Shown one piece after another: positions 8,537 to 31,121 of a stretch of DNA of 32,918 nt; the stretch's first letter is position 1, and every line of letters starts with the position of its first letter. The DNA is taken from positions 1 to 32,918 of the forward strand of contig JAYVWK010000434.1 in the NCBI GenBank assembly GCA_043786185.1, in the 5' to 3' direction. The stretch comes from Burkholderiales bacterium. Its GTDB lineage: Bacteria; Pseudomonadota; Gammaproteobacteria; Burkholderiales; JAEUOS01. The translations under genes and the position numbers were made by a program. The notes under the pieces are model-generated. The model was given only the letters and a program-made list of their open reading frames with translations, did not search any database and had not been told where the DNA came from.

Positions 8537-9616
8537 ATGAATCCAGGCACAAGCAGGAAAATTCGGGCGGCGGCAACCGTTCTTGATCCGCGCTGGGCGA
8601 GCGTGGCTGCGCGCGACCCGCTGGCCGACGGCAGTTTTTTCTACTCGGTGGCCACCACCGGCGTCTATTGCCGGCCGAGCTGTGCGGCACGTCCGGCACG
8701 CCCGGAAAACGTCGCCTTCCATGCCACCATGGCCGACGCCGAACAGGCCGGCTTCCGGCCCTGCAAGCGATGCAGACCCGGCCAGCCAAGCCTGGCGGCG
8801 ATGCAGGCCGCGAAAGTCACCGCACTGTGCCGCTTCATCGAGTCAGCCGAGCAAGTGCCAACCCTGAATCAACTGGCGCAGCGCGCTGGTACCAGTCCCT
8901 ATCACCTGCACCGTACGTTCAAGGCAGTCACCGGACTGACGCCGAAGGCTTATGCCGGTGCGCACCGGGCGCGGCGCCTGCGGCAGGCGCTGGCCACCGG
9001 CACGACCGTCACCGACGCCATCTACGACGCCGGCTACAACTCCGGCAGCCGGTTCTACGAACAAGCCGACCAGGTGCTCGGCATGACGCCCACGCGCTTT
9101 CGCGACGGTGGATCAGGCGCGCCGATACAGTTTGCGATCGGCGAGTGCTCGCTCGGGGCACTCTTGGTCGCACGGAGTGACCGCGGCGTCTGCGCGATCC
9201 TGCTGGGCGACGATGCGGACGCACTGGTTCGCGATTTGCAGATTCGCTTTCCGAAGGCGCGCTTGATCGCAGGCGATGCCGGGTTTGAACAATTGATGAC
9301 GCGGGTGCTTGGCCTGGTTGAAGCACCACGACTCGGTCTCGACCTACCGCTCGACGTTCAGGGCACCACGTTCCAGCAGCGCGTCTGGCAGGCCTTGCGT
9401 GACATACCGCCCGGCCGCACCGCCAGTTATGCCGAGGTCGCCAGGCGCATCGGCGCGCCGACCTCGACGCGTGCCGTGGCCCAGGCATGCGCCGCCAATC
9501 CGCTCGCACTGGCGATCCCCTGCCATCGTGTGGTGAAGAGCGATGGTGCGCTGGCCGGGTACCGCTGGGGGATCGAGCGCAAGCGTGCGCTGCTCGCGCG
9601 TGAGGCCGGCCAGTGA
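8537..9616 (+). CDS. ada: bifunctional Ada: methylphosphotriester-DNA / O6-alkylguanine-DNA methyltransferase and AraC-type activator
   Basis: N-terminal Cys4 zinc site (FYSVATTGVYCRPSCAARPARPENV...FRPCKRC), central AraC HTH (SPYHLHRTFKAVTGLTPKAY) and C-terminal acceptor site PCHRVV. Confidence 0.9.
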   Translation: MNPGTSRKIRAAATVLDPRWASVAARDPLADGSFFYSVATTGVYCRPSCAARPARPENVAFHATMADAEQAGFRPCKRCRPGQPSLAAMQAAKVTALCRFIESAEQVPTLNQLAQRAGTSPYHLHRTFKAVTGLTPKAYAGAHRARRLRQALATGTTVTDAIYDAGYNSGSRFYEQADQVLGMTPTRFRDGGSGAPIQFAIGECSLGALLVARSDRGVCAILLGDDADALVRDLQIRFPKARLIAGDAGFEQLMTRVLGLVEAPRLGLDLPLDVQGTTFQQRVWQALRDIPPGRTASYAEVARRIGAPTSTRAVAQACAANPLALAIPCHRVVKSDGALAGYRWGIERKRALLAREAGQ

Positions 9617-10377
9617 GCGCGTCGGCAGCTAGCGCGATGCCGGCCACGGCAACACCCGCTGTTGCAGCGCGCATCGCGGCAATCGATTGGTCACAGGTGG
9701 CTATCGACCTGGATGCCTTAGGCCATGCGCTGATTCCAGGCTTGATCGACGCTTGCCAATGTGAAGCACTCGCAGCGTTGTATGCGACCGGGGATGCGCA
9801 AAAGCCGCCGCTATTCCGCAGCCGCGTGGTGATGGCACGCCATGGTTTCGGGCGCGGCGAGTACAAGTACTTCAGCTACCCGTTGCCGGACCTGGTGGCC
9901 CAGCTGCGCTTTGCGCTGTATCCGCGCCTGGCGCCGCTGGCCAATCGCTGGCACGCGGCGATGGGGCTTGACGCGCGCTTTCCACCAGACCACGAGGCAT
10001 TCATCGCGCGCTGCCATCAGGCCGGGCAGCGACGACCCACGCCCCTGCTGCTGCAGTATGGGGAAGGAGACTACAACTGCCTGCACCAGGACCTGTACGG
10101 CGAACACGTCTTTCCGCTGCAGGCGGTGTTGCTGCTGTCCAGGCCCGGACACGACTTCGAAGGCGGCGAACTGGTCCTGACCGAGCAGCGCCCGCGCATG
10201 CAGTCACGCCCGATGGTGTTACCGATGCAGCAGGGCGACATGGCGCTGATCGCCGTGCATCACCGTCCTGTGAAGGGCGTGCGCGGCTTCTACCGCGTGC
10301 AGTTGCGCCACGGCGTGAGTCGCATCCGCGCCGGCAAACGCCACACCGCTGGCATCATTTTTCACGACGCCACGTAA
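9613..10377 (+). CDS. 2OG-Fe(II) oxygenase of the ada-operon-associated type (DUF2086/PF09859-like as I recall)
   Basis: HxD motif (CLHQDLYGEH), GGELVL, and distal ...RHTAGIIFHDA. The start (GTG) overlaps the ada stop (GTGA). The gene sits between ada and alkB. Confidence 0.75.
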   Translation: MSASAASAMPATATPAVAARIAAIDWSQVAIDLDALGHALIPGLIDACQCEALAALYATGDAQKPPLFRSRVVMARHGFGRGEYKYFSYPLPDLVAQLRFALYPRLAPLANRWHAAMGLDARFPPDHEAFIARCHQAGQRRPTPLLLQYGEGDYNCLHQDLYGEHVFPLQAVLLLSRPGHDFEGGELVLTEQRPRMQSRPMVLPMQQGDMALIAVHHRPVKGVRGFYRVQLRHGVSRIRAGKRHTAGIIFHDAT

Positions 10378-10381
10378 CGCA

Positions 10382-11065
10382 ATGGCGGCCGCGCACGACG
10401 GATTCACCGCCGATTTGTTTGCGGACCAGAGACGAGCGCCTGACGACCCGCCGGCGCAACAGGTTCTGGCGCCGGGCGCTTTGTTGATGCGCGGCCTGGC
10501 CAGCCCGCAAGCACCCGGCTTGTTCGCCGACCTGCAGGCGGTCCTGGCGCTGTCGCCGCTGCGCCGAATGGTCACGCCCGGCGGCTTGCCGATGTCGGTG
10601 GCGATGAGCAATTGCGGCCCCTTGGGCTGGGTAAGCGATCGCAGCGGCTATCGCTACGAGCAGCACGACCCCGGCAACGGCCGCCCCTGGCCGCCGATGC
10701 CTTCGTCCTTCCGCGCCCTCGCGGCAGGTGCCGCCGCGCAGGCAGGTTTCGAGGCTTTCGAATCGGACGCCTGCCTGATCAATTGCTATGCGCCCGGCGC
10801 CCGCCTGAGTTCGCACCAGGACCGCGACGAGCGCGACTTCAGTCAGCCGATCGTATCGGTCTCGCTCGGACTGCCGGCGATTTTTTTGTTCGGTGGCAGA
10901 AACCGATCCGAAAAATCGGCTCGCATTCCGCTCGATCATGGCGACGTCATCGCCTGGGGCGGCGCGTCGCGGCTGCGTTACCACGGCGTGCTCGCATTGA
11001 AGGACGGGCAGCACCCGCTCACCGGCCGCTGCCGCTTCAACTTGACCTTCCGACGCGCGAGTTGA
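10382..11065 (+). CDS. alkB: alpha-ketoglutarate-dependent DNA/RNA dioxygenase AlkB
   Basis: CLINCYAPGARLSSHQDRDE (HxD), SRLRYHGV (distal His) and RFNLTFRRA (RxNxTxR) are present. 227 aa. Confidence 0.9.
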   Translation: MAAAHDGFTADLFADQRRAPDDPPAQQVLAPGALLMRGLASPQAPGLFADLQAVLALSPLRRMVTPGGLPMSVAMSNCGPLGWVSDRSGYRYEQHDPGNGRPWPPMPSSFRALAAGAAAQAGFEAFESDACLINCYAPGARLSSHQDRDERDFSQPIVSVSLGLPAIFLFGGRNRSEKSARIPLDHGDVIAWGGASRLRYHGVLALKDGQHPLTGRCRFNLTFRRAS

Positions 11066-21992: not shown

Positions 21993-23138
21993 ATGGATTT
22001 CAGCCTGACCGAGAATCAAATCATGATCCGCGATTCGGTGCGCAAGTACGCCGAGGCGGAACTGCTGCCCAACTACCAGCGCTGGGACAAGACCGGCGAG
22101 TGGTTGACCAAGGACTTCATGGACAAGCTGGTCGACATGGGCTTGTTGCGCCTGCGCCTGCCGGAAAAATACGGCGGCCAAGGTTACTCGTTTGTCGACT
22201 GCGGCATCGTGTGCGAGGAAATCGGCCGCTGCGACCACCAGATCCGCTACATCATCTCCAACGCCATCCACCTGGGCGAAATGGCCTCGTCGATGCACCC
22301 GGACCTGCAGGAGGAATGGATTCCGCGCATCGCCAACGGCGAAATGATGTCGCTCGCCTTCACCGAGCCGCGCGGCGGCGCCGACGCCGGCAACATCACC
22401 ACCAAGGCGGTGCGCGACGGCGACTTCTGGGTGATCAATGGCGCCAAGACCAGCATCACCTTCACCGGCGTGTCGAAAGTGGTGTTCGTCTCGGCACGCA
22501 CCGGCAAGCCCGGCCCCAAGGGCCTCTCGTTCTTCCTGGTGCCGACCGACACACCGGGCCTCACGACCACCAACTTCGAACGCATGGGACAAAAGCTCGA
22601 CCGCGGCGGCAGCATGTATTTCGACGATGTGCGCATCCCGGCGCACAACATGATCGGCAAGGAGAACGAAGGCTTCATCTGGGCCATGACCATCATCGGT
22701 TACAACCGCAATTTCGTGCCTCTGGCCTGCATCGGCGCGGCGATGAAGTCGCTTGAAGAGACCATTGCATACGTCAAGCAGCGCCAGGTGATGGGCCGCT
22801 CGCTTTCCAAGTGGCAGGGCGTCGCCAACGAACTGGCCACCGAAGCCACCAAGCTGGAGGCGGCGCGCCTGTTGTGCTATCGCGCCCTTTCGTTGAAGGA
22901 CAAGGGCTTGCGCCACGACGCCGAATCGTCGATGGCCAAGTGGTGGGGCGTGAAAACCGCCAACGAGGCGCTCTACACCTGCATGCGCCTGAACGGCCAC
23001 TACGGCTGGGCCAAGGATTTCCCGCACGAGCAACGGCTGCGCGATTGCCTCGGCATGGAATCGGCCGACGGCCCGCGTGAGGTGCATCTGGGCATCATCG
23101 CGCGCGACATCCTGGGCCGCGAATTCGCGCCGTTTTAG
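21993..23138 (+). CDS. acyl-CoA dehydrogenase
   Basis: 381 aa. Typical ACAD layout (MDFSLTENQIMIRDSVRKYAE..., FTEPRGGADAGNITTKA, ...ADGPREVHLGIIARDILG). Confidence 0.9.
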   Translation: MDFSLTENQIMIRDSVRKYAEAELLPNYQRWDKTGEWLTKDFMDKLVDMGLLRLRLPEKYGGQGYSFVDCGIVCEEIGRCDHQIRYIISNAIHLGEMASSMHPDLQEEWIPRIANGEMMSLAFTEPRGGADAGNITTKAVRDGDFWVINGAKTSITFTGVSKVVFVSARTGKPGPKGLSFFLVPTDTPGLTTTNFERMGQKLDRGGSMYFDDVRIPAHNMIGKENEGFIWAMTIIGYNRNFVPLACIGAAMKSLEETIAYVKQRQVMGRSLSKWQGVANELATEATKLEAARLLCYRALSLKDKGLRHDAESSMAKWWGVKTANEALYTCMRLNGHYGWAKDFPHEQRLRDCLGMESADGPREVHLGIIARDILGREFAPF

Positions 23139-23217
23139 AGTGTTTGTCCGCAGCAAAGCCGAGGTGTGGCAGTTGCCGCCCGGCCGGTGTGCCCCGTCCC
23201 GCTGGAAGGAGAATCGC

Positions 23218-24189
23218 ATGCATCTTTTTCGCCGTGCCATCGTGATCGCTGTCGCCACCGCAGGTCTGGCAGCCGCAGGCAATGCTTGCTCGCAACTCTA
23301 TCCCATGAAGCCGGTCAAGGTGATCGTGCCGTTTCCGCCCGGCCAGGGCACCGATGTGGCCACGCGGTTTCTGGCGGAGCGCCTCGGCAAGGCACTTGGA
23401 CACAATTTTCTCGTCGAGAACCGCCCCGGCGCCGGCGCCAGCCTGGGTACCGAAGCCTTGGCCAGGTCGCCGGCCGATGGCTACACCCTGGGCATCGGAA
23501 CGGCGGGCACGCACACCATGAATCCCTCGCTCTACCCGACGCTCGGGTATGACCCGGACCGCGATTTCGAGCCGATCATCCTGACCGGCATGCTGCCGCT
23601 GATGATCGCGGCCCACCCCGCCTTCCCCGCCAATTCGATCCAGGAACTGATCGCCCTGGCCCGCGCCAAACCGGACACCATCAACGTCGCCCTGCCGGCA
23701 CCGCCGCAGCGTGTCGCCTTCGAGTTGTTGCGACAGCAAGGCGGCGCGCCTCTATTCGGCGTGCCCTACAAAGGCTCGGCCACCGCCCTGCCGGAAGTCA
23801 TGAGCGGCCAGGTACCGCTGATCGTGGACAGCATCACGGCACTGCGCCCGCATGTCAACGCCGGCAAGCTCAAGGCATTGGGTGTCACTTCGCCCCAAGC
23901 CACCGACCTGATGCCGGGCGTGAAATCGGTTGCCGAGCAAGGCCTGCCCGGATTCGAGCTGACCGCCTGGAATGCCTTCTTCGCACCCAGGGGCACGCCG
24001 CAGGCGATTGTGATGTCGCTCAACGCGGAGGTGCGCAAGATTCTCGCCGAACCCGACACGCGCCAGCGCTTGATGGCGCTCGGCTTCGAAGTGGCGGGCG
24101 GCACGCCGCAAGAACTTGCGGAGCGGGTACGCAGCGAACGTGAAAAATGGAGCCGCATCATCCGCGCGGCGCGGATCACGGCGGATTAA
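23218..24189 (+). CDS. Bug/TctC-family substrate-binding protein
   Basis: Signal peptide MHLFRRAIVIAVATAGLAAAGNA followed by YPMKPVKVIVPFPPGQGTD. Start moved to ATG 23218 (GGAAGGAGA SD). Confidence 0.9.
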   Translation: MHLFRRAIVIAVATAGLAAAGNACSQLYPMKPVKVIVPFPPGQGTDVATRFLAERLGKALGHNFLVENRPGAGASLGTEALARSPADGYTLGIGTAGTHTMNPSLYPTLGYDPDRDFEPIILTGMLPLMIAAHPAFPANSIQELIALARAKPDTINVALPAPPQRVAFELLRQQGGAPLFGVPYKGSATALPEVMSGQVPLIVDSITALRPHVNAGKLKALGVTSPQATDLMPGVKSVAEQGLPGFELTAWNAFFAPRGTPQAIVMSLNAEVRKILAEPDTRQRLMALGFEVAGGTPQELAERVRSEREKWSRIIRAARITAD

Positions 24190-24277
24190 TGCGAAGAGGA
24201 CCGTCATCGTGCGCCCGGCGGCCAACAGCCAAGCCGCCTCATGCAATGCAGCGCCGCTACATCAGGATGCCAGTACC

Positions 24278-25525
24278 ATGAAACTCGAAGGCATTCGCGT
24301 CATCGACTTGTCACGCTTCCTGCCCGGCCCGATGTTGACGCAGTTGATGGCCGACCAGGGTGCCGAGGTGATCAAGATAGAGTCCACCGACGAGGGCGAA
24401 CCGACGCGAACCATCGGCGAGCTGCGCGAGGGCATCAGCGTGTTTTTCGCCAACACCAGCCGCGGCAAGAAAAGCCTGGCCTTGAACCTCAAGCACCCGG
24501 CCGGGGTGGAAGCGCTGCTGCGCTTGGCCGAGACTGCGGACGTCATCATCGAGGCATTCCGCCCGGGCGTGGCGGACCGGCTCGGCGTCGGCTACCGGCA
24601 GGTCGCCGCACGCGCCCCGCAAGTCGTTTATGCCTCGATCTCGGCCTATGGGCAAAGCGGCCCCTATCGCGACCTCGCCACCCATGACCTGGCCACCGAG
24701 GCGATGGCCGGCGTGCTGTCGCTCAATCATGGCCAGGACGGCAAGCCGGCGATTCCGGGCCTGCCGGCCTCCGACATGCTGGCCGCGACCATCGCCCTCT
24801 CGGGCGTGTTGATGGCGCTGCTGCGGCGCAAGGACACCGGGCGCGGCGATTTTCTCGACATCGCAATGGCCGAGTGCCTGCTCGCCTGCATTCCCAATAA
24901 TCTCGGCTCGGCGATGGCGGCGCGACGTCAGCCCGATGTCGGCAACGAACGCTCGCTCGGTGGCAATCCGCTCTACACGGTTTATGAAACACGAGATGGC
25001 GCGTGGATCGCGCTGGGCAGCCAGGAATTCAAGTTCGCCGTCAACCTGCTCACCGCACTTAAGCGGCCGGACCTGATCGATCTGTGCAGGCTGCCGCCCG
25101 GCCGCGCGCAACATCCGGTGCGCGACGCCCTGCGCGCGATCTTCCGCGGCAAGACCCGAGCCGAATGGATCGAATGGTTCAAGGGCCGCGACATACCGTT
25201 CGCACCGGTACAGAGCCTGCCCGAGGTGCTGGACGACCCGCACTTCCGGCAGCGCGGCATGGTGCTGACCGACGCACGCGGCTGGGATCACATCGGCAGC
25301 CCGATCCGCTTTGCGGATGAACCCGGGCAGGTGCGCTTCGCACCGCCCGCCCTGGGACAGCATTCGCAGGAAATCCTGCAATCCCTCGGGTATGCCGATG
25401 ACGAGATCGCCGCGTTGCAGGCAGCCGGTGCGTTCAGGCAGGCGATGCATGAGGACATCGCGCACCATTCGAGCGGCGCGGCAGACGCTCCGCCATTCGA
25501 GCACCGCGTCAAGCCGCCTGACTAA
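24278..25525 (+). CDS. family III CoA-transferase (CaiB/BaiF family)
   Basis: MKLEGIRVIDLSRFLPGPMLTQLMADQGAEVIKIESTDEGEPTR parallels the paralogue at 3254..4432. Start moved to ATG 24278. Confidence 0.9.
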   Translation: MKLEGIRVIDLSRFLPGPMLTQLMADQGAEVIKIESTDEGEPTRTIGELREGISVFFANTSRGKKSLALNLKHPAGVEALLRLAETADVIIEAFRPGVADRLGVGYRQVAARAPQVVYASISAYGQSGPYRDLATHDLATEAMAGVLSLNHGQDGKPAIPGLPASDMLAATIALSGVLMALLRRKDTGRGDFLDIAMAECLLACIPNNLGSAMAARRQPDVGNERSLGGNPLYTVYETRDGAWIALGSQEFKFAVNLLTALKRPDLIDLCRLPPGRAQHPVRDALRAIFRGKTRAEWIEWFKGRDIPFAPVQSLPEVLDDPHFRQRGMVLTDARGWDHIGSPIRFADEPGQVRFAPPALGQHSQEILQSLGYADDEIAALQAAGAFRQAMHEDIAHHSSGAADAPPFEHRVKPPD

Positions 25526-25605
25526 GGCGTAGCATGGCATTGGCGATTGCCACGCGAATGCCCGCCACGTTGTAGTGACCATCCTGCTCACCTGAGGCCC
25601 ACCCC

Positions 25606-26613
25606 ATGCAGCCACCCAGCGACTTTATCCTGATCACCCGCCGACTCAAACGCGGCGTCGCCACCCTGCTCGCGGCGTTCGCCACGCTGCCCACCTGCGC
25701 ACCCGCATTCGCGCAGGCCTACCCGACCAAGCCGATCCGCGTTTACGTGAACTCGGCGCCCGGCGGGCTGACCGACGTGATCGCGCGCTTAGTCGCGGTG
25801 CGCATGAGCCAGGCGCTTGGCCAACCGCTGCTGATCGACAACCGCACCGGCGTCGGTGGCTTAGTCGGCGCCGAACTGGTGACCAAGGCCGAGCCCGACG
25901 GCTACACCATCGGCGTGGTGGCCAGCGCGATCACCGTCTCGCCCCAACTGATGGCCACCCCGCCATTCGACGCATCGAAGGACTTCACCCCGGTCGCGCT
26001 CCTGATGTCGACGCCGCTGATTCTGGTGACCAATGTGAACTCGCGCTACCGCAGCGTGGCCGACTATGTGAGTGAAGCGAAAGCCCGGCCGGGAGAGTTG
26101 TCGTTTGCCTCGGGCGGCACCGGCACCATGACCCACCTCTTGGCCGAGCAACTGCAAACCCATGCCGGCCTGAAGCTGATTCATGTGCCCTACAAGGGTG
26201 GCGCGCCGGCCCTGAACGACGTGCTGGCCGGCCATGTGCCGATCTACTTCGATACCCTCACCACCAGCACCAAGCTGGTCCAGGAAAACAAACTGCGTGC
26301 GCTGGCGATCGTCAGCCCGAAGCGCTCGCCGGCCTTGCCGACGGTGCCGACCATCGCCGAGGCGGGCTATCCCGACGTGCAGGGCATGGCCTGGTTCGCC
26401 ATCGTGGCGCCGCCGCAAATGCCGCGCGAGATCGTCACCCGCTTGAATGAAGAAGCCAACAAGGCGCTGGCCGCGCCGGAAATCAGGGAGCGCATTCTCG
26501 CGCTCGGCGGCACCGTCGAGGGCGGCGGCGCCGCAGTGCTGGCCGACCTGATCCGCAGCGAAATGCCGCGCTGGGCCAAGCTGATTCGCGAACGCGGCAT
26601 CAAGATGCAATAA
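25606..26613 (+). CDS. Bug/TctC-family substrate-binding protein
   Basis: Signal peptide ...LLAAFATLPTCAPAFA followed by YPTKPIRVYVNSAPGGLTD. 335 aa. Confidence 0.9.
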   Translation: MQPPSDFILITRRLKRGVATLLAAFATLPTCAPAFAQAYPTKPIRVYVNSAPGGLTDVIARLVAVRMSQALGQPLLIDNRTGVGGLVGAELVTKAEPDGYTIGVVASAITVSPQLMATPPFDASKDFTPVALLMSTPLILVTNVNSRYRSVADYVSEAKARPGELSFASGGTGTMTHLLAEQLQTHAGLKLIHVPYKGGAPALNDVLAGHVPIYFDTLTTSTKLVQENKLRALAIVSPKRSPALPTVPTIAEAGYPDVQGMAWFAIVAPPQMPREIVTRLNEEANKALAAPEIRERILALGGTVEGGGAAVLADLIRSEMPRWAKLIRERGIKMQ

Positions 26614-26634
26614 GCGGTAAGCGGGAGGCGCTGC

Positions 26635-28326
26635 GTGGACTACACCGTGGGCGACCTGGTCGCCGATTTTCTCGCCGGCGCCGGGGTCGACACGGCATTC
26701 GGCATCGTCTCGATCCACAACATTCCGATCCTCGATGCGATCGGCCGGCGTGGCGTGATCCGTTTTGTGCCGACGCGCGGTGAAGCCGGTGCCGGCCACA
26801 TGGCGGACGCCTACGCACGGGTGTCGGGCGGGCTCGGTGTCTTGATCACCAGCACCGGACCGGGCGCGGCCAATGCGGTGCCGGCGTTAGTCGAGGCGCG
26901 CTTCGCCGGCTGCCCGCTGTTGCATATCACCGGCCAGACCGCGACCCGCCTGCAGGGACGCGACAGCGGTGCGGTGCACGACTTCCCCGGCCAGGGCGCG
27001 ATGCTGGCCGCGGTGTGCAAATCGGTGCATCGTCCGCGTAGCGCTGGCGAGGTGCTGGAAAATCTCGTCGCCGCCGCCAGCGACGCCTTGTCGGCGCCGC
27101 GCGGCCCGGTGACCATCGAGATCGCCGCCGACCTGCAGGCGCAGAAGGTCGCGCAGCCGGCCTCGTTTGCAGGGCTGGTGGCGCCACGTCCGCCACCCAT
27201 GCCACCACCACAGGACCTCGACGCGCTGGCCGACCTGCTGGCGCAAGCGCGCCGACCGCTGCTATGGCTGGGCAATGGCGCGCGCGGCGCCGGCGCCGAG
27301 GCGCGCGCCCTGCTCGATCTCGGGTTCGGCGCAGTAAGTTCGTGGACCGGCCGCGGCATCGTGCCCGAAGATCACCCGCGCACCCTGGGCGCGCTGCATG
27401 GCAATGGCGCACCGGCGATCGAGGATTTCTACGCCGGGGTCGACGCGCTGCTGGTGGTCGGCTCGCGCCTGCGCGGCCACGAGACGCTCGACGGCGCGCT
27501 GCGCCTGCCGCAGCACCTGATGCAGGTCGATATCGACCCGCAGGCCAACGGCCGCACCTATGCAAACGCCATGTTCGTGCGTGGCGACGCTGCGGCAACG
27601 CTCGCCGGCCTCAAGCAGCGCCTTGCCGGCCGCCTGAAGGTGGCGCCGGACTTCGGCACCGACCTGGCCCGCGCCCGCGATCTGGCCGCCGAGACCTACC
27701 GTGCCGGCCTCGGTCCCTATTGCGACTTTCCGGCGCAACTGCGGCGCGCCATGCCGCCCGATGCGGTGTGGGTACGCGACGCCACGGTCGCCGGCCACAC
27801 CTGGGCGCACCGCCTGATTCCCCTCCAAGGCCCGCGCGACTCGGTGCATCCGGTCAGCGGCGCGATCGGCCCCGGCCTGCCATTCGGCATCGGCGCCGCG
27901 CTGGCAGCCGGCGCCGCCGGCCGCAAGGTGGTGGTGCTGGCGGGCGATGGCGGCTTCGCGATGCACATGACGGAACTGTGGACCGCGCGCCAGGAACGCT
28001 CCGACCTCTGCGTGATCGTGATGAACGACGGTATTTACGCTGCGATCGGCTTTCTGCAGGATGCGAACCAGAATGGCCGGCGTTACTACGGCGAGTTGCA
28101 GGGGCCGGACCTGCGCGGCCTGGCGGCGCTGGCGGGGATGCCGTTCTGGCGGGTGGATCGCGCCGACATGTTTGGCGACGCCGTGGCCGCGGCCACGGCG
28201 TCGCCCGGCCCGACCATGGTGGAAGTGGACATGCGCGCGATCGGGCCGGTGCCGCCATACGGCCATCGTGTACGTCCGCCGACCGCAACAGGAAGTGACA
28301 AACGGCGGGATGCCAACACGACATGA
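26635..28326 (+). CDS. thiamine-diphosphate-dependent enzyme (acetolactate synthase large-subunit-like)
   Basis: N-terminal pyrimidine-binding domain (FGIVSIHNIPILDA...EAGAGHMADAYARVSG) and C-terminal ThDP motif GDGGFAMHMTELWTARQERSDLCVIVMNDG. GTG start. Confidence 0.9.
   Translation: MDYTVGDLVADFLAGAGVDTAFGIVSIHNIPILDAIGRRGVIRFVPTRGEAGAGHMADAYARVSGGLGVLITSTGPGAANAVPALVEARFAGCPLLHITGQTATRLQGRDSGAVHDFPGQGAMLAAVCKSVHRPRSAGEVLENLVAAASDALSAPRGPVTIEIAADLQAQKVAQPASFAGLVAPRPPPMPPPQDLDALADLLAQARRPLLWLGNGARGAGAEARALLDLGFGAVSSWTGRGIVPEDHPRTLGALHGNGAPAIEDFYAGVDALLVVGSRLRGHETLDGALRLPQHLMQVDIDPQANGRTYANAMFVRGDAAATLAGLKQRLAGRLKVAPDFGTDLARARDLAAETYRAGLGPYCDFPAQLRRAMPPDAVWVRDATVAGHTWAHRLIPLQGPRDSVHPVSGAIGPGLPFGIGAALAAGAAGRKVVVLAGDGGFAMHMTELWTARQERSDLCVIVMNDGIYAAIGFLQDANQNGRRYYGELQGPDLRGLAALAGMPFWRVDRADMFGDAVAAATASPGPTMVEVDMRAIGPVPPYGHRVRPPTATGSDKRRDANTT
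28014..28250 (+). repeat. copy A of a diverged direct repeat (functional 3' end of the ThDP-enzyme gene)
   Basis: Matches 29339-29590. Shared exact runs gatcgtgatgaacgacg and ggcccgaccatggtggaagtgga. 53 of 73 translated residues are identical by hand count. Confidence 0.8.
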
Positions 28327-28419
28327 GCGACAGCACTGCGGCAAGTCAGAAGCCTTGCGGCGATGGGCTGGCAACTCTGATAAACTGATTTTCTTATTAA
28401 CAAATGGATTCCGTTTGCC

Positions 28420-28701
28420 ATGGACTCGCTCGCCGTCAATGTCACCGAGTTTTCCCGCAATCTGTCCGATTTCTTGAATCAGGTGCAATATCGTGGGCAG
28501 GTTCTTGATATAGAGCGTGGCAAACGGGTGGTGGCACGCCTGTCGCCCGTCTCGGCAATCGATGGCTACCCCATCGCGCAACTCGACGCCCTGCTGGCCC
28601 GGGGCCCGCAGCTTGATGCGGCCGATCGCAAGTTGATGGCCAAAGACCTGCGCGCGATGCGCGTCCAATCGCGCTCACGGACTGATCCTTGGGCCTCGTA
28701 A
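28420..28701 (+). CDS. vapB: type II antitoxin, Phd/YefM-type (VapB role)
   Basis: MDSLAVNVTEFSRNLSDFLNQVQYRGQVLDIERGKRVVARLSPV is a Phd/YefM-like N-terminus. It overlaps the downstream PIN toxin gene by 13 nt. Confidence 0.8.
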   Translation: MDSLAVNVTEFSRNLSDFLNQVQYRGQVLDIERGKRVVARLSPVSAIDGYPIAQLDALLARGPQLDAADRKLMAKDLRAMRVQSRSRTDPWAS

Positions 28702-29105
28702 TCGACACGGATGTCTGGGTCCTTGCCGAGAAATCCGGCGGCAAACTCAATTTGGCGCGATGGGCGCACCATGGCAACGCCTATATGAGCGCAGTCACTG
28801 CCAGCGAGTTGCTGGTCGGTGTAGAACGCGCCAACAGCGCGCAACGCAAGGCGCTACGTGGCGCGTTTGTTGAGAGCATTCTGGCCTCGATTCCGATTCT
28901 GGACTTTTCCGCCGCGGTCGCGCGTACCCACGCGCGCATGCTTGCGCGCTTGCCAAAGAACAAGACGGCCACAGTCCAAGTCCAGGACGCGCTGATCGCC
29001 GCCACTGCGTTGCATCACGGTCACGCGCTGCTCACCCGAAACCTGGCCGATTTCAAGATTTTTGCAGGCCTGACCGTCGAAGCCTATAGCGATCCCGTGG
29101 ATTGA
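28689..29105 (+). CDS. vapC: type II toxin, PIN-domain ribonuclease VapC
   Basis: PIN acidic residues in context: LVIDTDV, TASELLVG, VQDALIAATALHHG, LLTRNLADF. TTG start. 138 aa. Confidence 0.85.
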   Translation: MGLVIDTDVWVLAEKSGGKLNLARWAHHGNAYMSAVTASELLVGVERANSAQRKALRGAFVESILASIPILDFSAAVARTHARMLARLPKNKTATVQVQDALIAATALHHGHALLTRNLADFKIFAGLTVEAYSDPVD

Positions 29106-29338
29106 CGCTGCGGCAAGCCGGCAGCGCCATGCGCACAAGCGCCCAATACTCCGCTGCGACCACTGGTGACGGCACTGATCGGGTCGCCGTGCCGCCAGCA
29201 CCGATTTCTCATCTTTCGCTCGATCACGTGTCGCATGCGAGCGATTAAATTTCCTGCTTCCCGACCGCAAGTCTGTCCGACGCCTGATCCACCAAGAGCC
29301 CTCGATGTCAGGAACTGCAAACGAGCGCACGATCGATT

Positions 29339-29618
29339 GATCGTGATGAACGACGACTTCTACGCGGCAATCGCCGTTCTGCAGGATGCAAACCAGGATG
29401 GCCGGCGCTTTCATGGCGAATTGCAGGGGCCAGGCTTGCGCGGTCTGGCGGCGCTGGCGGAGATGCCGTTGCGGCGGGTGGATAGTGCCGCGATGTTCGG
29501 CAGCTCGAGGGCCGCGGCCCTCGCAACGGCTGGCCCGACCATGGTGGAAGTGGATTTCCTATCCTTCGGTTCGGATCGGACGATCGGGCCTCCCGTGCAA
29601 GCGACGCGAACTCGATGA
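29339..29618 (+). pseudogene. orphan 3' fragment (copy B) of a ThDP-enzyme gene
   Basis: Translation LIVMNDDFYAAIAVLQDANQDGRRFHGELQGPGLRGLAALAEMPLRRVDSAAMFGSSRAAALATAGPTMVEVD... parallels residues about 460-535 of the upstream intact enzyme. The N-terminal ~460 codons are missing. It has its own stop at 29616-29618. The upstream part of track ORF 29166..29618 shows no homology. Confidence 0.75.
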
Positions 29619-29729
29619 TAATCGGGGCGCTAGCCTCTGCCGATCAACGAGCGAGATCGGCACCCTGATTCGGCTTGCCGCCGGGCCTGGAGGAGATTCC
29701 TGCGTCGGCGCCGGTGTCAACAGGAGAAC

Positions 29730-31121
29730 ATGCCGATGAGCACCGAACTTTGGAACCTTGCCGCCAGCGATCTCGTGCGCGAGTTTCGCGCCCGCCGACT
29801 TTCGCCGGTGGAGTTGCTACAGGCCATCCTGCGGCGTGCTGAAGCGGCCAATCCGGCCATCAATGCGCTGGCCTTCCTGGATGCCGAGCGCGCGCTGGCG
29901 GCCGCGCGCGCATCCGCGGCGCGCTGGCAGCGCGGCCAACCCGCGAGCCCGCTTGACGGCGTACCGGTGACCGTCAAGGACAGCATGCCGGCGGCCGGCA
30001 TGCTGTCCTTCAGCGGCAGCAAAGCCTGCAACGCCGAACGCATCCCCGACGCAGTCGACGCACCGGTCGTGGCACGGCTCAAGGAGGCCGGTGCCGTCCT
30101 CCTGGGCAAGACCACGATGCCCGATTTCGGCCTTGTCGCCTCCGGCATCAGCAGCCGTTTCGGCACCACCCGCAACCCGTGGGACCTGACGCGCAACTCC
30201 GGCGGCTCGAGCTCGGGTGCTGGCGCCGCGGTTGCCGCCGGCATCGGGCCGTTGGCCATCGGCACCGACGGTGGCGGCTCGATCCGCATCCCGTCCGCCT
30301 TTTGCGGCGTGTTCGGCCTCAAGCCGAGCTATGGCCGGGTGCCGGTGCATGAGCCGCAACCCTGGGTGGTAGCTGGGCCGATCACCCGCAGCGTCGCTGA
30401 TGCGGCGCTGCTGATGGGGGTGATCAGTCGCCCCGACCCGCGCGACTTCACGGCCCTGCCCTACGACCCGCGGGACTACCTTGCCGGCATCGACGACGGC
30501 GTGCGCGGTGCGCGTATTGGGCTGCTGGAAGACATCGGCTTCGGCCTGAAAGTCGAGCCGCAGGTGCGCGACCGGCTGATGCACGCCGCAAGAGTGTTCG
30601 AAAGCCTTGGTGCGACGGTTGAGCCGATCGCGCCGCTGTTCGCCGACAGCCCGGAACCCGATTTCGACCGCCTGTTGCACCTGCGCACCTACCTTCAGTT
30701 CTCGGCCATGACCCAGGACCAGCGTGATGCGATGCTGCCGGCGCTGGCCCGCTGGTGCGCGGACGAGAACGCCGAGCCGCGCGAGCGCTTGATGCAGGCG
30801 CTGGTCAATGTCGATGCAAGCCGTCGCGCCACGCTGGCGCCGTTCGCAGTGCATGAATTCCTGCTCGCGCCAGTGCTGGCAGTGCTGCCCTTTGCCGCCG
30901 AGCTGCCGTGGCCACCTGGCGGCACGGCGCACCACCCGTTCTGCTTTCCGTTCAACATGTCGGAGCAGCCGGCAGCCTCGATACACGGCGGCTTTTCCAG
31001 CCAGGGATGGCCGGTGGGCCTGCAAATCATAGGCCGCCGCTTCGACGACCGGGGGGTGCTGCGCGCGGCACACGCCTATGCGCAGGCCACCGGCTTTTTG
31101 CAACGCCGCCCGACGCTTTGA
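29730..31121 (+). CDS. amidase (amidase-signature family)
   Basis: AS signature GGSSSGAGAAVAAGIGPLAIGTDGGGSIRIPSAFCGVFGLKPSYGRV, catalytic Lys context PVTVKDS. AGGAGA SD. Confidence 0.9.
   Translation: MPMSTELWNLAASDLVREFRARRLSPVELLQAILRRAEAANPAINALAFLDAERALAAARASAARWQRGQPASPLDGVPVTVKDSMPAAGMLSFSGSKACNAERIPDAVDAPVVARLKEAGAVLLGKTTMPDFGLVASGISSRFGTTRNPWDLTRNSGGSSSGAGAAVAAGIGPLAIGTDGGGSIRIPSAFCGVFGLKPSYGRVPVHEPQPWVVAGPITRSVADAALLMGVISRPDPRDFTALPYDPRDYLAGIDDGVRGARIGLLEDIGFGLKVEPQVRDRLMHAARVFESLGATVEPIAPLFADSPEPDFDRLLHLRTYLQFSAMTQDQRDAMLPALARWCADENAEPRERLMQALVNVDASRRATLAPFAVHEFLLAPVLAVLPFAAELPWPPGGTAHHPFCFPFNMSEQPAASIHGGFSSQGWPVGLQIIGRRFDDRGVLRAAHAYAQATGFLQRRPTL

What the first reader, a model, noticed from the sequence alone, without database searches (positions are those of the whole stretch)
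28014..29618. vapBC cassette lies between the working 3' end of the ThDP-enzyme gene and a diverged orphan second copy of that 3' end
Seen directly: the last ~80 codons of the intact ThDP-enzyme gene (28014-28250) recur in diverged form at 29339-29590. Gene copy: VIVMNDGIYAAIGFLQDANQNGRRYYGELQGPDLRGLAALAGMPFWRVDRADMFGDAVAAATASPGPTMVEVD. Orphan copy: LIVMNDDFYAAIAVLQDANQDGRRFHGELQGPGLRGLAALAEMPLRRVDSAAMFGSSRAAALATAGPTMVEVD. By hand count 53 of 73 residues are identical, and two nucleotide runs of 17 and 23 nt match exactly. The orphan copy lacks the rest of the gene and keeps its own stop. It sits about 110 nt upstream of the SD-led amidase gene, so it looks like the original gene end. The 1.3 kb between the copies holds only a Phd-type antitoxin, a PIN toxin and about 230 nt of unassigned DNA. 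Inference: the TA cassette entered the 3' end of the gene carrying a surrogate 3' end. That is how integrative elements targeting gene or tRNA 3' ends behave, yet there is no integrase or att-like structure that I can see. Recombination with a diverged homologue already linked to vapBC is the alternative. Either way the host gene stays intact while the TA pair is fixed inside an operon. A minimal integrase-less TA insertion module of this kind is not something I know to be described.
Basis: partly seen in the sequence, partly recalled or inferred. Interest (0 to 1): 0.7.

Follow-up and report, generated by a model that had tools for sequence, protein, structure and literature searches.

The report
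Gene-fragment scar beside a vapBC cassette
The repeated piece of the thiamine-enzyme gene is real, but it is a decaying 217-base fragment left at an old rearrangement junction, and the neighbouring toxin-antitoxin pair arrived separately, so this is ordinary genome wear rather than a new kind of mobile element.

Summary
The repeat is real. Window 28013-28229 and 29338-29554 are 82% identical in nucleotides and 53/73 in amino acids. The local alignment scores 230 against 21.8±2.5 for shuffles.

The favoured interpretation fails, because vapBC and the orphan copy are separable.
- Relative L187 has the same ThDP gene, the same vapBC cassette and the same downstream DNA, colinear with the window exactly to 29337. 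It has no orphan copy.
- Relative L094 has no vapBC. Its ThDP gene is colinear with the window gene through copy A and the family's conserved tail, up to 28294.

So copy A is the native end. The cassette (about 28295-29242, lower G+C) replaced only the last ~10 codons.

The "unassigned" DNA before the orphan (29243-29337) is the old ThDP-downstream spacer plus the first 11 codons of the neighbouring gene (g181, sulfopyruvate-decarboxylase-alpha-like).

The orphan is an internal fragment (codons ~460-532). Both its edges are sharp and it lacks the conserved tail. It carries changes at family-invariant residues and branches inside the same species complex.

Most likely it is the relic of a second, diverged ThDP allele, left at an illegitimate-recombination junction that joined this locus to the amidase region.

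No integrase or att structure exists. One point is unexplained: the g181 stub ends within 6 nt of the same site in two different arrangements.

The parts
26635..28326 (+). Intact ThDP-dependent enzyme gene (563 aa; NCBIfam PRK07064-type 'thiamine pyrophosphate-binding protein')
   Evidence: Pfam TPP_enzyme_N/M/C. NCBIfam NF005470 scores 668 bits against a cut-off of 495. Relatives at 78-95% identity keep the same architecture.
28013..28229 (+). Repeat copy A: codons ~460-532 of the intact gene. It is native and vertically contiguous with the rest of the gene.
   Evidence: It is colinear with vapBC-free L094 and with L096, L187, L097 and L108.
28230..28294 (+). Native conserved C-terminal tail of the ThDP family (MRAIGPVPPYGHRVRPPTATG). 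Copy B has no counterpart.
   Evidence: The tail is conserved in the homologues whose C-termini were inspected, P0002-P0039. Homology with L094 ends at 28294.
28295..29242 (+). vapBC cassette (~948 nt), an indel relative to L094, where 45-50 nt stand instead. It consists of a new 10-codon tail plus stop for ThDP (28295-28326), an AT-rich leader (28327-28419, G+C 0.51), vapB 28420-28701, vapC 28689-29105 and a 3' flank 29106-29242.
   Evidence: Boundaries come from L094 against the window. G+C is 0.51-0.61, against 0.69-0.72 in the flanking genes. The PIN domain scores 55 bits. VapC structures match with the acidic motif positions aligned. The same cassette is present in L187 and its start in L096.
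29243..29304 (+). Relic of the original ThDP-g181 intergenic spacer (starts GATTAAA)
   Evidence: Homologous to L094 3845-3904 and to L187 6358-6419.
29305..29337 (+). 5' stub (11 codons, MSGTANERTID) of g181, the sulfopyruvate-decarboxylase-alpha-like gene that follows ThDP in relatives. It is truncated at an illegitimate junction.
   Evidence: L094 g181 begins MSEAANERTVESWEE and matches TIGR03845. L187 shares the stub at 100% identity.
29338..29554 (+). Orphan copy B: a 217-nt internal fragment of a second, diverged ThDP allele. It is a pseudogene relic and both its edges are sharp.
   Evidence: It has 21 private substitutions (12 non-synonymous, 9 synonymous) at family-invariant residues. 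It is 85-86% identical to sister alleles, 80% to window copy A and 74% to L097.
29555..29729 (+). Unassigned spacer between the orphan fragment and the amidase. It holds the incidental stop of the orphan ORF (29616-29618) and the amidase ribosome-binding site.
   Evidence: No significant similarity to the ThDP tail or spacer of any relative. tblastx finds it only in the same population.
29730..31121 (+). Amidase gene, the right-hand partner of the rearrangement
   Evidence: Pfam Amidase. NCBIfam PRK07042 scores 505 bits. The nearest relatives outside the population are only 75% identical and have other upstream genes.

Best explanation
Two separate events are superimposed here.

Event 1: the vapBC cassette. 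A foreign cassette of about 0.95 kb replaced ~45 nt between the ThDP gene and the spacer in front of its old neighbour g181. It clipped only the last ~10 codons of ThDP and gave it a new short tail and stop. This arrangement (ThDP-vapBC-spacer-g181) is shared by at least two lineages that are ~10% diverged.

Event 2: the junction. Independently, an illegitimate junction formed inside codon 11-12 of g181. It joined this locus to a 217-nt piece (codons ~460-532) of a second ThDP allele from the same recombining species complex. That piece is in turn joined at its other edge to the DNA leading into the amidase/ABC-transporter region.

The most likely route for event 2 (inferred, not shown) is recombination between two differently arranged chromosomes. 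One was ThDP-vapBC-g181. In the other, a ThDP copy lay next to the amidase region. Homology would have been available on one side only (homology-facilitated illegitimate recombination), or else successive deletions occurred in a merodiploid. The functional ThDP_A copy was kept. The leftover ThDP_B fragment has since decayed as a pseudogene.

The TA pair is a passenger of the left-hand block. It neither made the duplication nor uses it as an attachment site.
For: Shown:
- L094 (no vapBC) is colinear with the window from TctC through copy A and the conserved tail to 28294. Its post-ThDP spacer and first g181 codons reappear at window 29237-29341 (score 99 against 21.6±3.2).
- L187 has ThDP-vapBC-spacer-stub colinear with the window to exactly 29337. 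It then continues with other DNA: 363 nt, a FitA-like/PIN pair, a second copy of the spacer and an intact g181. Its only match to B is its own copy A.
- B has no homology beyond 29554 and lacks the tail conserved in all family members inspected.
- B sits inside the ≥88% clade. It is 85-86% identical to L082A, L099A and L096, and 74% to L097. It has 21 private changes, 12 of them non-synonymous, at invariant residues: NDGIY>NDDFY, PFWRV>PLRRV, GPDL>GPGL.
- A 1-nt indel changes which ORF contains B across the population.
- The cassette has lower G+C than its flanks.
- The block from vapB to the stub is 94-100% identical between L187 and the window, against 87-89% for ThDP. B's ~10% private divergence is therefore hard to derive from the resident copy A after that block was shared.
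- The window has no integrase or transposase.

From the literature: one-sided-homology insertion that leaves displaced gene fragments is documented (PMC5361080 and the references it cites).
Against: - No genome was found that shows the postulated second arrangement, a full ThDP_B next to this amidase. The amidase's nearest relatives (75% identical) have other upstream genes.
- The order of events and the direction of transfer are not resolved.
- The g181 stub ends within 6 nt of the same position in L187 and in the window, with different right-hand partners. A purely random illegitimate event does not predict that.
- All comparators are short metagenomic or MAG contigs, and some may be chimeric.
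Confidence: 0.62

Rival explanations
1. In-situ tandem duplication. The 1325-bp unit from codon ~460 of ThDP to codon 11 of g181 (R-tail-vapBC-spacer-stub) duplicated head to tail. Most of the second unit was later deleted or replaced, leaving only R-B, which then decayed.
For: The junction order is exactly that of a tandem-duplication joint: the downstream spacer and g181 stub are followed by an upstream ThDP segment. The repeat spacing is 1325 nt. B's closest relatives are alleles of the same gene.
Against: - It needs at least one more event ending precisely at 29554, plus replacement of everything downstream by the amidase region.
- B has ~10% private divergence and is 14-20% from every A-type allele. 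The neutral spacer and stub next to it differ by only 0-3% between L187 and the window.
- L187 has the stub without B.
- No contig shows two vapBC copies.
Confidence: 0.15
2. Site-directed cassette accretion. The ThDP-g181 spacer is a hot spot where incoming TA cassettes are captured at defined sequences (around GATTAAA and around g181 codon 12). Each brings a surrogate copy of the g181 5' region and leaves displaced stubs. The window junction would be one outcome of the same process.
For: - In L187 a second TA pair (FitA-like RHH + PIN) is flanked by two diverged ~180-nt copies of [75-nt flank + GATTAAA + spacer + 12 codons]. The left copy is an orphan stub and the right copy runs into intact g181 (score 106 against 22±3.2).
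- The stub ends within 6 nt of the same site in L187 and in the window.
- L094, the window and L081 all diverge just left of GATTAAA.
Against: - No recombinase gene is present.
- The shared flank is not repeated elsewhere in 190 loci and is not significantly structured (z -1.0).
- 'Border of homology' effects in ordinary recombination between allele types can place junctions at the same spots.
- L081's 54 nt may be an assembly chimera.
- Only two informative arrangements exist.
Confidence: 0.12
3. A minimal integrase-less vapBC module integrated into the 3' end of the ThDP gene, carrying a surrogate 3' end (copy A) and displacing the original end (copy B). This resembles elements that target tRNA or gene 3' ends, or R-M 'insertion with long target duplication'.
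For: Direct repeats of a gene segment bracket a TA pair, and the upstream gene stays intact. Long target duplications flanking addiction modules without mobility genes are described for R-M systems (PMC2853133).
Against: - Copy A and the tail after it are colinear with the vapBC-free relative.
- The same cassette occurs without copy B in L187.
- Native spacer and a g181 stub lie between vapBC and B.
- B is an internal fragment without the conserved tail and is not followed by the native continuation.
- There is no integrase or att structure.
- Every contig found with this exact VapB or VapC protein, and the 87%-lineage contig L187 that carries a diverged copy, places the pair at this one locus, directly after the ThDP gene.
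Confidence: 0.03

Closest known systems
Displaced gene-end fragments from one-sided-homology (HFIR-type) insertion: Rhs C-terminal displacement and T6SS effector-immunity arrays (Kirchberger et al. 2017, PMC5361080, and Jackson 2009, Poole 2011, de Vries & Wackernagel 2002, Prudhomme 2002 as cited there)
   Same: An intact gene is followed by an orphan fragment of the same gene that keeps part of the conserved region. No mobility genes are present. The likely origin is exchange among diverged strains, with homology on one side and an illegitimate joint on the other.
   Different: In those systems the incoming DNA brings a new variable 3' end with its immunity gene. Here the working 3' end is the native one. 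The orphan is an internal fragment with two illegitimate edges, and it is separated from the TA pair by relics of another gene. The toxin is an intracellular PIN toxin, not part of the duplicated gene.
R-M 'insertion with long target duplication' (Furuta, Abe & Kobayashi 2010, PMC2853133)
   Same: An addiction-type gene pair is bracketed by direct repeats of tens to hundreds of bp, with no integrase or transposase. Examples include Burkholderia and Acidovorax.
   Different: The defining comparison fails. The DNA between the repeats is partly native (tail, spacer, g181 stub), and the second repeat is not followed by the native continuation of the empty-site genome.
Chromosomal type II VapBC toxin-antitoxin cassette acquired horizontally
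   Same: A small antitoxin gene overlaps a PIN toxin gene. G+C is lower than in the flanks. The pair is present or absent among close relatives at a fixed position.
   Different: Nothing unusual. The only feature of note is that the insertion replaced the last ~10 codons of the upstream gene.
Integrase-less att-flanked remnants of integrative elements (cis-mobilizable elements; recalled from my own knowledge, not checked in the paper library)
   Same: A short cargo lies between direct repeats without a recombinase gene.
   Different: The repeats here are not att sites, because the same cargo exists without the second repeat. No related integrase-bearing element was found.

Membership tests
Integrative element targeting a gene 3' end with a surrogate end (att-flanked) | The proximal repeat (the working 3' end) is element-borne, so it is absent from or different in the empty-site relative | tested here: not met
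   L094 without vapBC is colinear through copy A and the tail to 28294.
Integrative element targeting a gene 3' end with a surrogate end (att-flanked) | The distal repeat is the displaced original gene end, followed by the original downstream DNA | tested here: not met
   B ends at codon ~532 and lacks the conserved tail. What precedes B, not what follows it, is the original downstream DNA.
Integrative element targeting a gene 3' end with a surrogate end (att-flanked) | Cargo and both repeats occur together wherever the element is present | tested here: not met
   L187 has the same vapBC cassette and flanks but no copy B.
Integrative element targeting a gene 3' end with a surrogate end (att-flanked) | A recombinase gene in or near the element, or a related element that has one | tested here: not met
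   No integrase or transposase domain in any window ORF scanned or in the called genes of L082-L105 and L187.
Insertion with long target duplication (R-M type, PMC2853133) | The repeat is single-copy in the empty-site genome | tested here: met
   One copy in each of L094, L096, L097 and L108.
Insertion with long target duplication (R-M type, PMC2853133) | Everything between the repeats is absent from the empty-site genome, and both outer flanks are colinear with it | tested here: not met
   The tail 28230-28294 and spacer plus stub 29243-29337 are native to L094. The DNA right of B (amidase) is not what follows in L094.
VapBC type II toxin-antitoxin | PIN-domain toxin with the conserved acidic residues | tested here: met
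   Pfam PIN scores 55.4 bits against a cut-off of 23.6. The alignment to Caulobacter VapC 5k8j conserves the DTxV, sxxEL, xDxxIAAxA and TxNxxDF positions. NCBIfam VapC models match but score below their cut-offs.
VapBC type II toxin-antitoxin | Small upstream antitoxin gene overlapping or abutting the toxin gene | tested here: met
   vapB 28420-28701 overlaps vapC 28689-29105 by 13 nt.
VapBC type II toxin-antitoxin | Antitoxin assignable to a known DNA-binding antitoxin fold | tested here: inconclusive
   Phd/YefM Pfam E 0.0032, 17.7 bits, below the cut-off of 29.8. PDB Phd E 0.23. No NCBIfam hit.
VapBC type II toxin-antitoxin | Toxicity and neutralisation | not testable with these tools
   Needs expression experiments.
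HFIR-type displacement scar | An orphan fragment of the same gene lies 3' of the intact copy and comes from a diverged allele | tested here: met
   B is 80-86% identical to A-type alleles and sits inside the clade.
HFIR-type displacement scar | An illegitimate joint with short microhomology and one homologous anchor | tested here: inconclusive
   The joint reads ...ACGATCGAT|TGATCGTG. GATCG motifs occur on both partners, but the product is not a simple microhomology join. The anchor side cannot be identified without the parental arrangements.
Pseudogene relic | Lacks the rest of the gene, has substitutions at invariant residues and an unstable reading frame in the population | tested here: met
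   ORFs of 104, 90 or 150 aa arise depending on a 1-nt indel.

The most novel reading that the evidence does not exclude
The ThDP-g181 spacer of this uncultured Burkholderiales species complex is a directed capture site for toxin-antitoxin cassettes. Successive cassettes (vapBC, then a FitAB-like pair in L187) are bounded by the same ~75-nt flank plus GATTAAA. Each brings a surrogate 5' end of g181 and leaves displaced stubs that end at one fixed position. This would be a recombinase-independent, or unknown-recombinase, 5'-end displacement array for TA modules. The window's stub|orphan junction would be a by-product of it.
Probability: 0.1. Interest if true: 0.5.

Novelty: new member of a known kind. 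Interest (0 to 1): 0.2.

Why it matters
The comparative evidence removes that reading.

What remains is a well-resolved example of two things. First, chromosomal TA cassettes and gene-fragment scars pile up in a variable spacer between conserved metabolic genes in a recombining natural population (contigs labelled BUSI22 and a MAG named GFS_1658). Second, a repeat that brackets a TA pair can mislead without empty-site comparisons.

Practical value is limited to three points:
- The orphan ORF should be annotated as a pseudogene fragment.
- The ThDP gene should be treated as intact, with a cassette-derived 10-codon tail.
- The clustered breakpoints are the only feature that might repay complete-genome sampling.

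Tried and rejected
- **Close relatives of the orphan peptide.** Only the same population was found.
- **Exact-protein look-ups of VapB, VapC and orphan variants.** All ~30 contigs show the same locus, so there is no second context for this vapBC.
- **Amidase orthologue contexts, to learn the 'native' upstream gene.** The nearest relatives are 75% identical and have unrelated neighbours, so this was uninformative.
- **Genome and metagenome scans with the ThDP protein.** These gave mostly ≤68% relatives. L108 and L188 (78-81%) have a TctC gene downstream, so the ancestral neighbour beyond the ~90% clade is not g181.
- **attC-like or structured cassette end.** Folding of 29106-29250 is not better than shuffles (z -1.0 and -0.6). 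The L187 flank has z -2.3, which alone is not convincing.
- **Multi-copy element test for the shared 75-nt flank.** No extra copies in the window or 190 loci.
- **Promoter and terminator scan of 27900-29800.** Nothing above background.
- **10-nt direct repeat CTGCGGCAAG bracketing vapBC (28336, 29108).** Judged compatible with chance.
- **Plasmid searches.** The cassette DNA has no hit; the best VapC match is 47% identical.
- **Gene conversion from B into A alleles.** None of six A alleles carries a B-private variant.
Full report
**Observation.** The window holds, on the + strand:
- a family III CoA-transferase;
- a TctC/Bug binding protein;
- a complete ThDP enzyme gene (26635-28326);
- a 93-aa antitoxin-like gene (28420-28701) overlapping a PIN toxin gene (28689-29105);
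- an ORF containing a second copy of part of the ThDP gene;
- an amidase gene (29730-31121).

The repeat is real. 28013-28229 and 29338-29554 are 82% identical (178/216 nt; 81% ungapped), and 53/73 residues match. Exact runs of 18 and 23 nt sit at the two edges. The local score is 230 against 21.8±2.5 for shuffles.

Both edges are sharp. Upstream of 29338 the frame does not read ThDP sequence. Downstream of 29554 there is no significant similarity to the ThDP tail of the window or of relatives (scores 20-26 against shuffled 21-22±3-4).

**The working end is native.** In the homologues whose C-termini were inspected (P0002-P0039, 71-95% identical), the family ends ...VEVDMRAIGPVPAYGHRVRPP followed by a short variable tail. 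Copy A is followed by exactly this tail. Copy B is not, so B is an internal fragment (codons ~460-532) and its stop codon is incidental.

**The empty site.** L094/L095 belong to a lineage with 89% nucleotide identity. There TctC-ThDP is followed, with no vapBC, by a short spacer and a two-gene split ThDP enzyme:
- g181 resembles sulfopyruvate decarboxylase alpha (TIGR03845, below that model's cut-off);
- g214 matches NCBIfam PRK06163 above its cut-off and resembles the beta subunit (TIGR03846).

The window is colinear with L094 through copy A and the conserved tail, up to 28294. Homology resumes at window 29237-29341, which matches L094's spacer from GATTAAA through the first g181 codons. The window reads ATG TCA GGA ACT GCA AAC GAG CGC ACG ATC GAT; L094 reads MSEAANERTVES... 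The score is 99 against 21.6±3.2.

So relative to L094, ~948 nt (28295-29242) replace ~45 nt. This is the vapBC cassette. Its G+C is 0.51 in the leader and 0.61 in the genes, against 0.69-0.72 in the flanking genes. It supplies only the last 10 codons and the stop of ThDP.

**The cassette exists without the orphan.** L187 is an NCBI MAG contig of a lineage with ~87% identity. It has TctC-CoA-transferase-TctC-ThDP-vapB-vapC-spacer-stub, colinear with the window up to exactly 29337. It then diverges into:
- 363 nt of unassignable DNA;
- a FitA-like RHH gene and a second PIN gene;
- a second, diverged copy of [~75-nt flank + GATTAAA + spacer + 12 codons], which runs into an intact g181 that is 94% identical to L094's.

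L187's only match to copy B is its own copy A. L096, another ~90% lineage, also has the vapB leader right after ThDP before its contig ends. The vapBC insertion is therefore older than, and independent of, the stub|B junction.

**What B is.** In the 219-nt codon-aligned segment, B is 85-86% identical to alleles L082A, L099A and L096. It is 84% identical to L094, 80% to the window's own copy A, 74% to L097 and 73% to L108. It therefore belongs to the same species complex.

B has 21 private substitutions (12 non-synonymous, 9 synonymous; codon positions 8/3/10). They include changes at residues invariant in the family: NDGIY to NDDFY, PFWRV to PLRRV and GPDL to GPGL. Four of these changes form one cluster that creates a perfect 18-nt palindrome, so they are probably a single template-switch event.

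Across ~30 population contigs B is 99-100% conserved, like its surroundings. A 1-nt indel upstream changes which ORF contains it (104, 90 or 150 aa). These are the properties of a pseudogene relic.

**Population context.** All contigs carrying this exact VapB, VapC or orphan peptide show the same locus. They are ENA/Logan metagenome contigs, several labelled BUSI22, plus a Burkholderiales MAG named GFS_1658.

The ThDP gene itself is a mosaic of alleles ~10% apart. Against L082 and L001, identity is ~100% at 25850-26900, ~90% at 26900-28250 and ~99% from 28250 rightwards. Between L187 and the window, ThDP is 87-89% identical but the stretch from vapB to the stub is 94-100% identical. Recombination among diverged lineages is therefore frequent here.

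The window contains no integrase or transposase.

**Mechanism.** The following is shown:
- two separable events, the cassette indel and the g181-stub|ThDP-fragment junction;
- a second sharp junction at 29554/5.

The following is inferred. B came from a second ThDP allele that was already diverged when it was joined. Its ~10% private divergence far exceeds the 0-3% seen in the adjacent neutral spacer and stub between L187 and the window. The simplest history is recombination between two differently arranged chromosomes of the complex, with homology on one side only (HFIR-type), or deletions in a merodiploid. This kept the functional ThDP_A-vapBC block and left a fragment of ThDP_B next to the amidase region.

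I could not find the second parental arrangement. The amidase has no relatives between 75% and 100% identity, and the 75% relatives have other neighbours. In-situ tandem duplication of the 1325-bp unit has the right joint topology. It needs extra events and fits the divergence data poorly.

**Unexplained.** The g181 stub ends at ...ACGATCGAT| in the window and at ...ACGATCGATACATGG| in L187, with different right-hand partners. Three sequences (L094, the window and L081) diverge immediately left of GATTAAA. In L187 a second TA pair is flanked by two ~180-nt copies of the spacer module.

This could reflect borders of homology between allele types, or a directed capture process. The shared flank is not multi-copy and not significantly structured, and no recombinase is present. 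I give the directed reading about 10%.

**Comparison with known systems.**
- The pattern 'intact gene followed by an orphan fragment of itself, no mobility genes' is known from Rhs C-terminal displacement and from T6SS effector-immunity arrays, for which HFIR has been proposed (PMC5361080).
- Long direct repeats around addiction modules without mobility genes are known for R-M systems as 'insertion with long target duplication' (PMC2853133).

The present locus fails the defining empty-site test of the R-M case. It also differs from the Rhs/T6SS case, because the working end is native rather than imported. The TA pair is an ordinary VapBC-type cassette. The PIN domain is above threshold and its acidic motifs align with VapC structures. 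The antitoxin is only weakly Phd-like. The cassette DNA has no plasmid match and the closest plasmid VapC is 47% identical.

**Verdict.** The locus is a new instance of known kinds of genome scar. Interest is low, apart from the clustered breakpoints.

Noticed in passing
L187:6279-7804 (relative; corresponds to window 29164-29337 on the left): A second TA pair (97-aa FitA-like RHH + 146-aa PIN) is flanked by two diverged ~180-nt direct copies of [75-nt flank + GATTAAA + spacer + first 12 codons of g181]. The left copy is an orphan stub; the right copy continues into intact g181. This mirrors the window's repeat at the 5' end of the neighbouring gene.
   Followed up: partly
window 29337/29338 and L187:6458/6459: The g181 stub is truncated within 6 nt of the same position in two arrangements that have different right-hand partners. 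It is either a recurrent breakpoint or shared history; this is unresolved.
   Followed up: partly
L081:1-54, joined to window-equivalent 29243: One contig that is 99.3% identical to the window from 29243 onward has a different 54 nt immediately left of GATTAAA. No other match was found in any fetched sequence. It is either another allele of the cassette slot or an assembly chimera.
   Followed up: partly
window 28174-28205 and 29506-29523: The window's copy A contains a perfect 32-nt palindrome (GGCGACGCCGTGGCCG/CGGCCACGGCGTCGCC); other alleles are only 16-24/32 self-complementary. Orphan B has a perfect 18-nt palindrome around the same GGCCGCGGCC centre. Both arise from clustered multi-base changes that look like independent quasi-palindrome template-switch mutations.
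   Followed up: partly
window 26900-28250 (and 23056-25850): The ThDP gene and upstream genes are mosaics of alleles ~10% apart within one population, while DNA right of ~28250 is ~99% identical in all contigs. Several metagenome contigs (L085, L086, L088, L090-L093) begin at 28176-28215, where allele variation ends.
   Followed up: partly
window ~29311 (GGAACTGC vs GGAAACTGC) and ~28954-29053: A 1-nt indel in many population contigs fuses the g181 start codon in frame to orphan B, giving a 104-aa ORF with its own spacer and RBS (P0001/P0122). A 6-nt indel makes VapC 136 or 138 aa.
   Followed up: no
window 28336-28353 and 29108-29125: A short direct repeat, CTGCGGCAAG (10 nt exact, 15/18 overall), lies 10 nt after the ThDP stop and 3 nt after the vapC stop, bracketing vapBC. 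The number of such repeats expected by chance in 2.3 kb is several.
   Followed up: partly
L094:5726-6456: The vapBC-free relative carries an unrelated second TA pair (100-aa antitoxin + 143-aa PIN) 1.9 kb downstream of ThDP, after g181-g214 and a Rieske gene. TA pairs recur in this neighbourhood across lineages.
   Followed up: no
window 459-24189: The rest of the window is ordinary Burkholderiales-type metabolic DNA. It has six TctC/Bug binding-protein genes, two more family III CoA-transferases, HMGL-like lyases, an acyl-CoA dehydrogenase, a P450, a beta-lactamase-fold protein and an Ada/AlkB-type alkylation-repair cluster (8537-11065). No mobility genes are present.
   Followed up: yes
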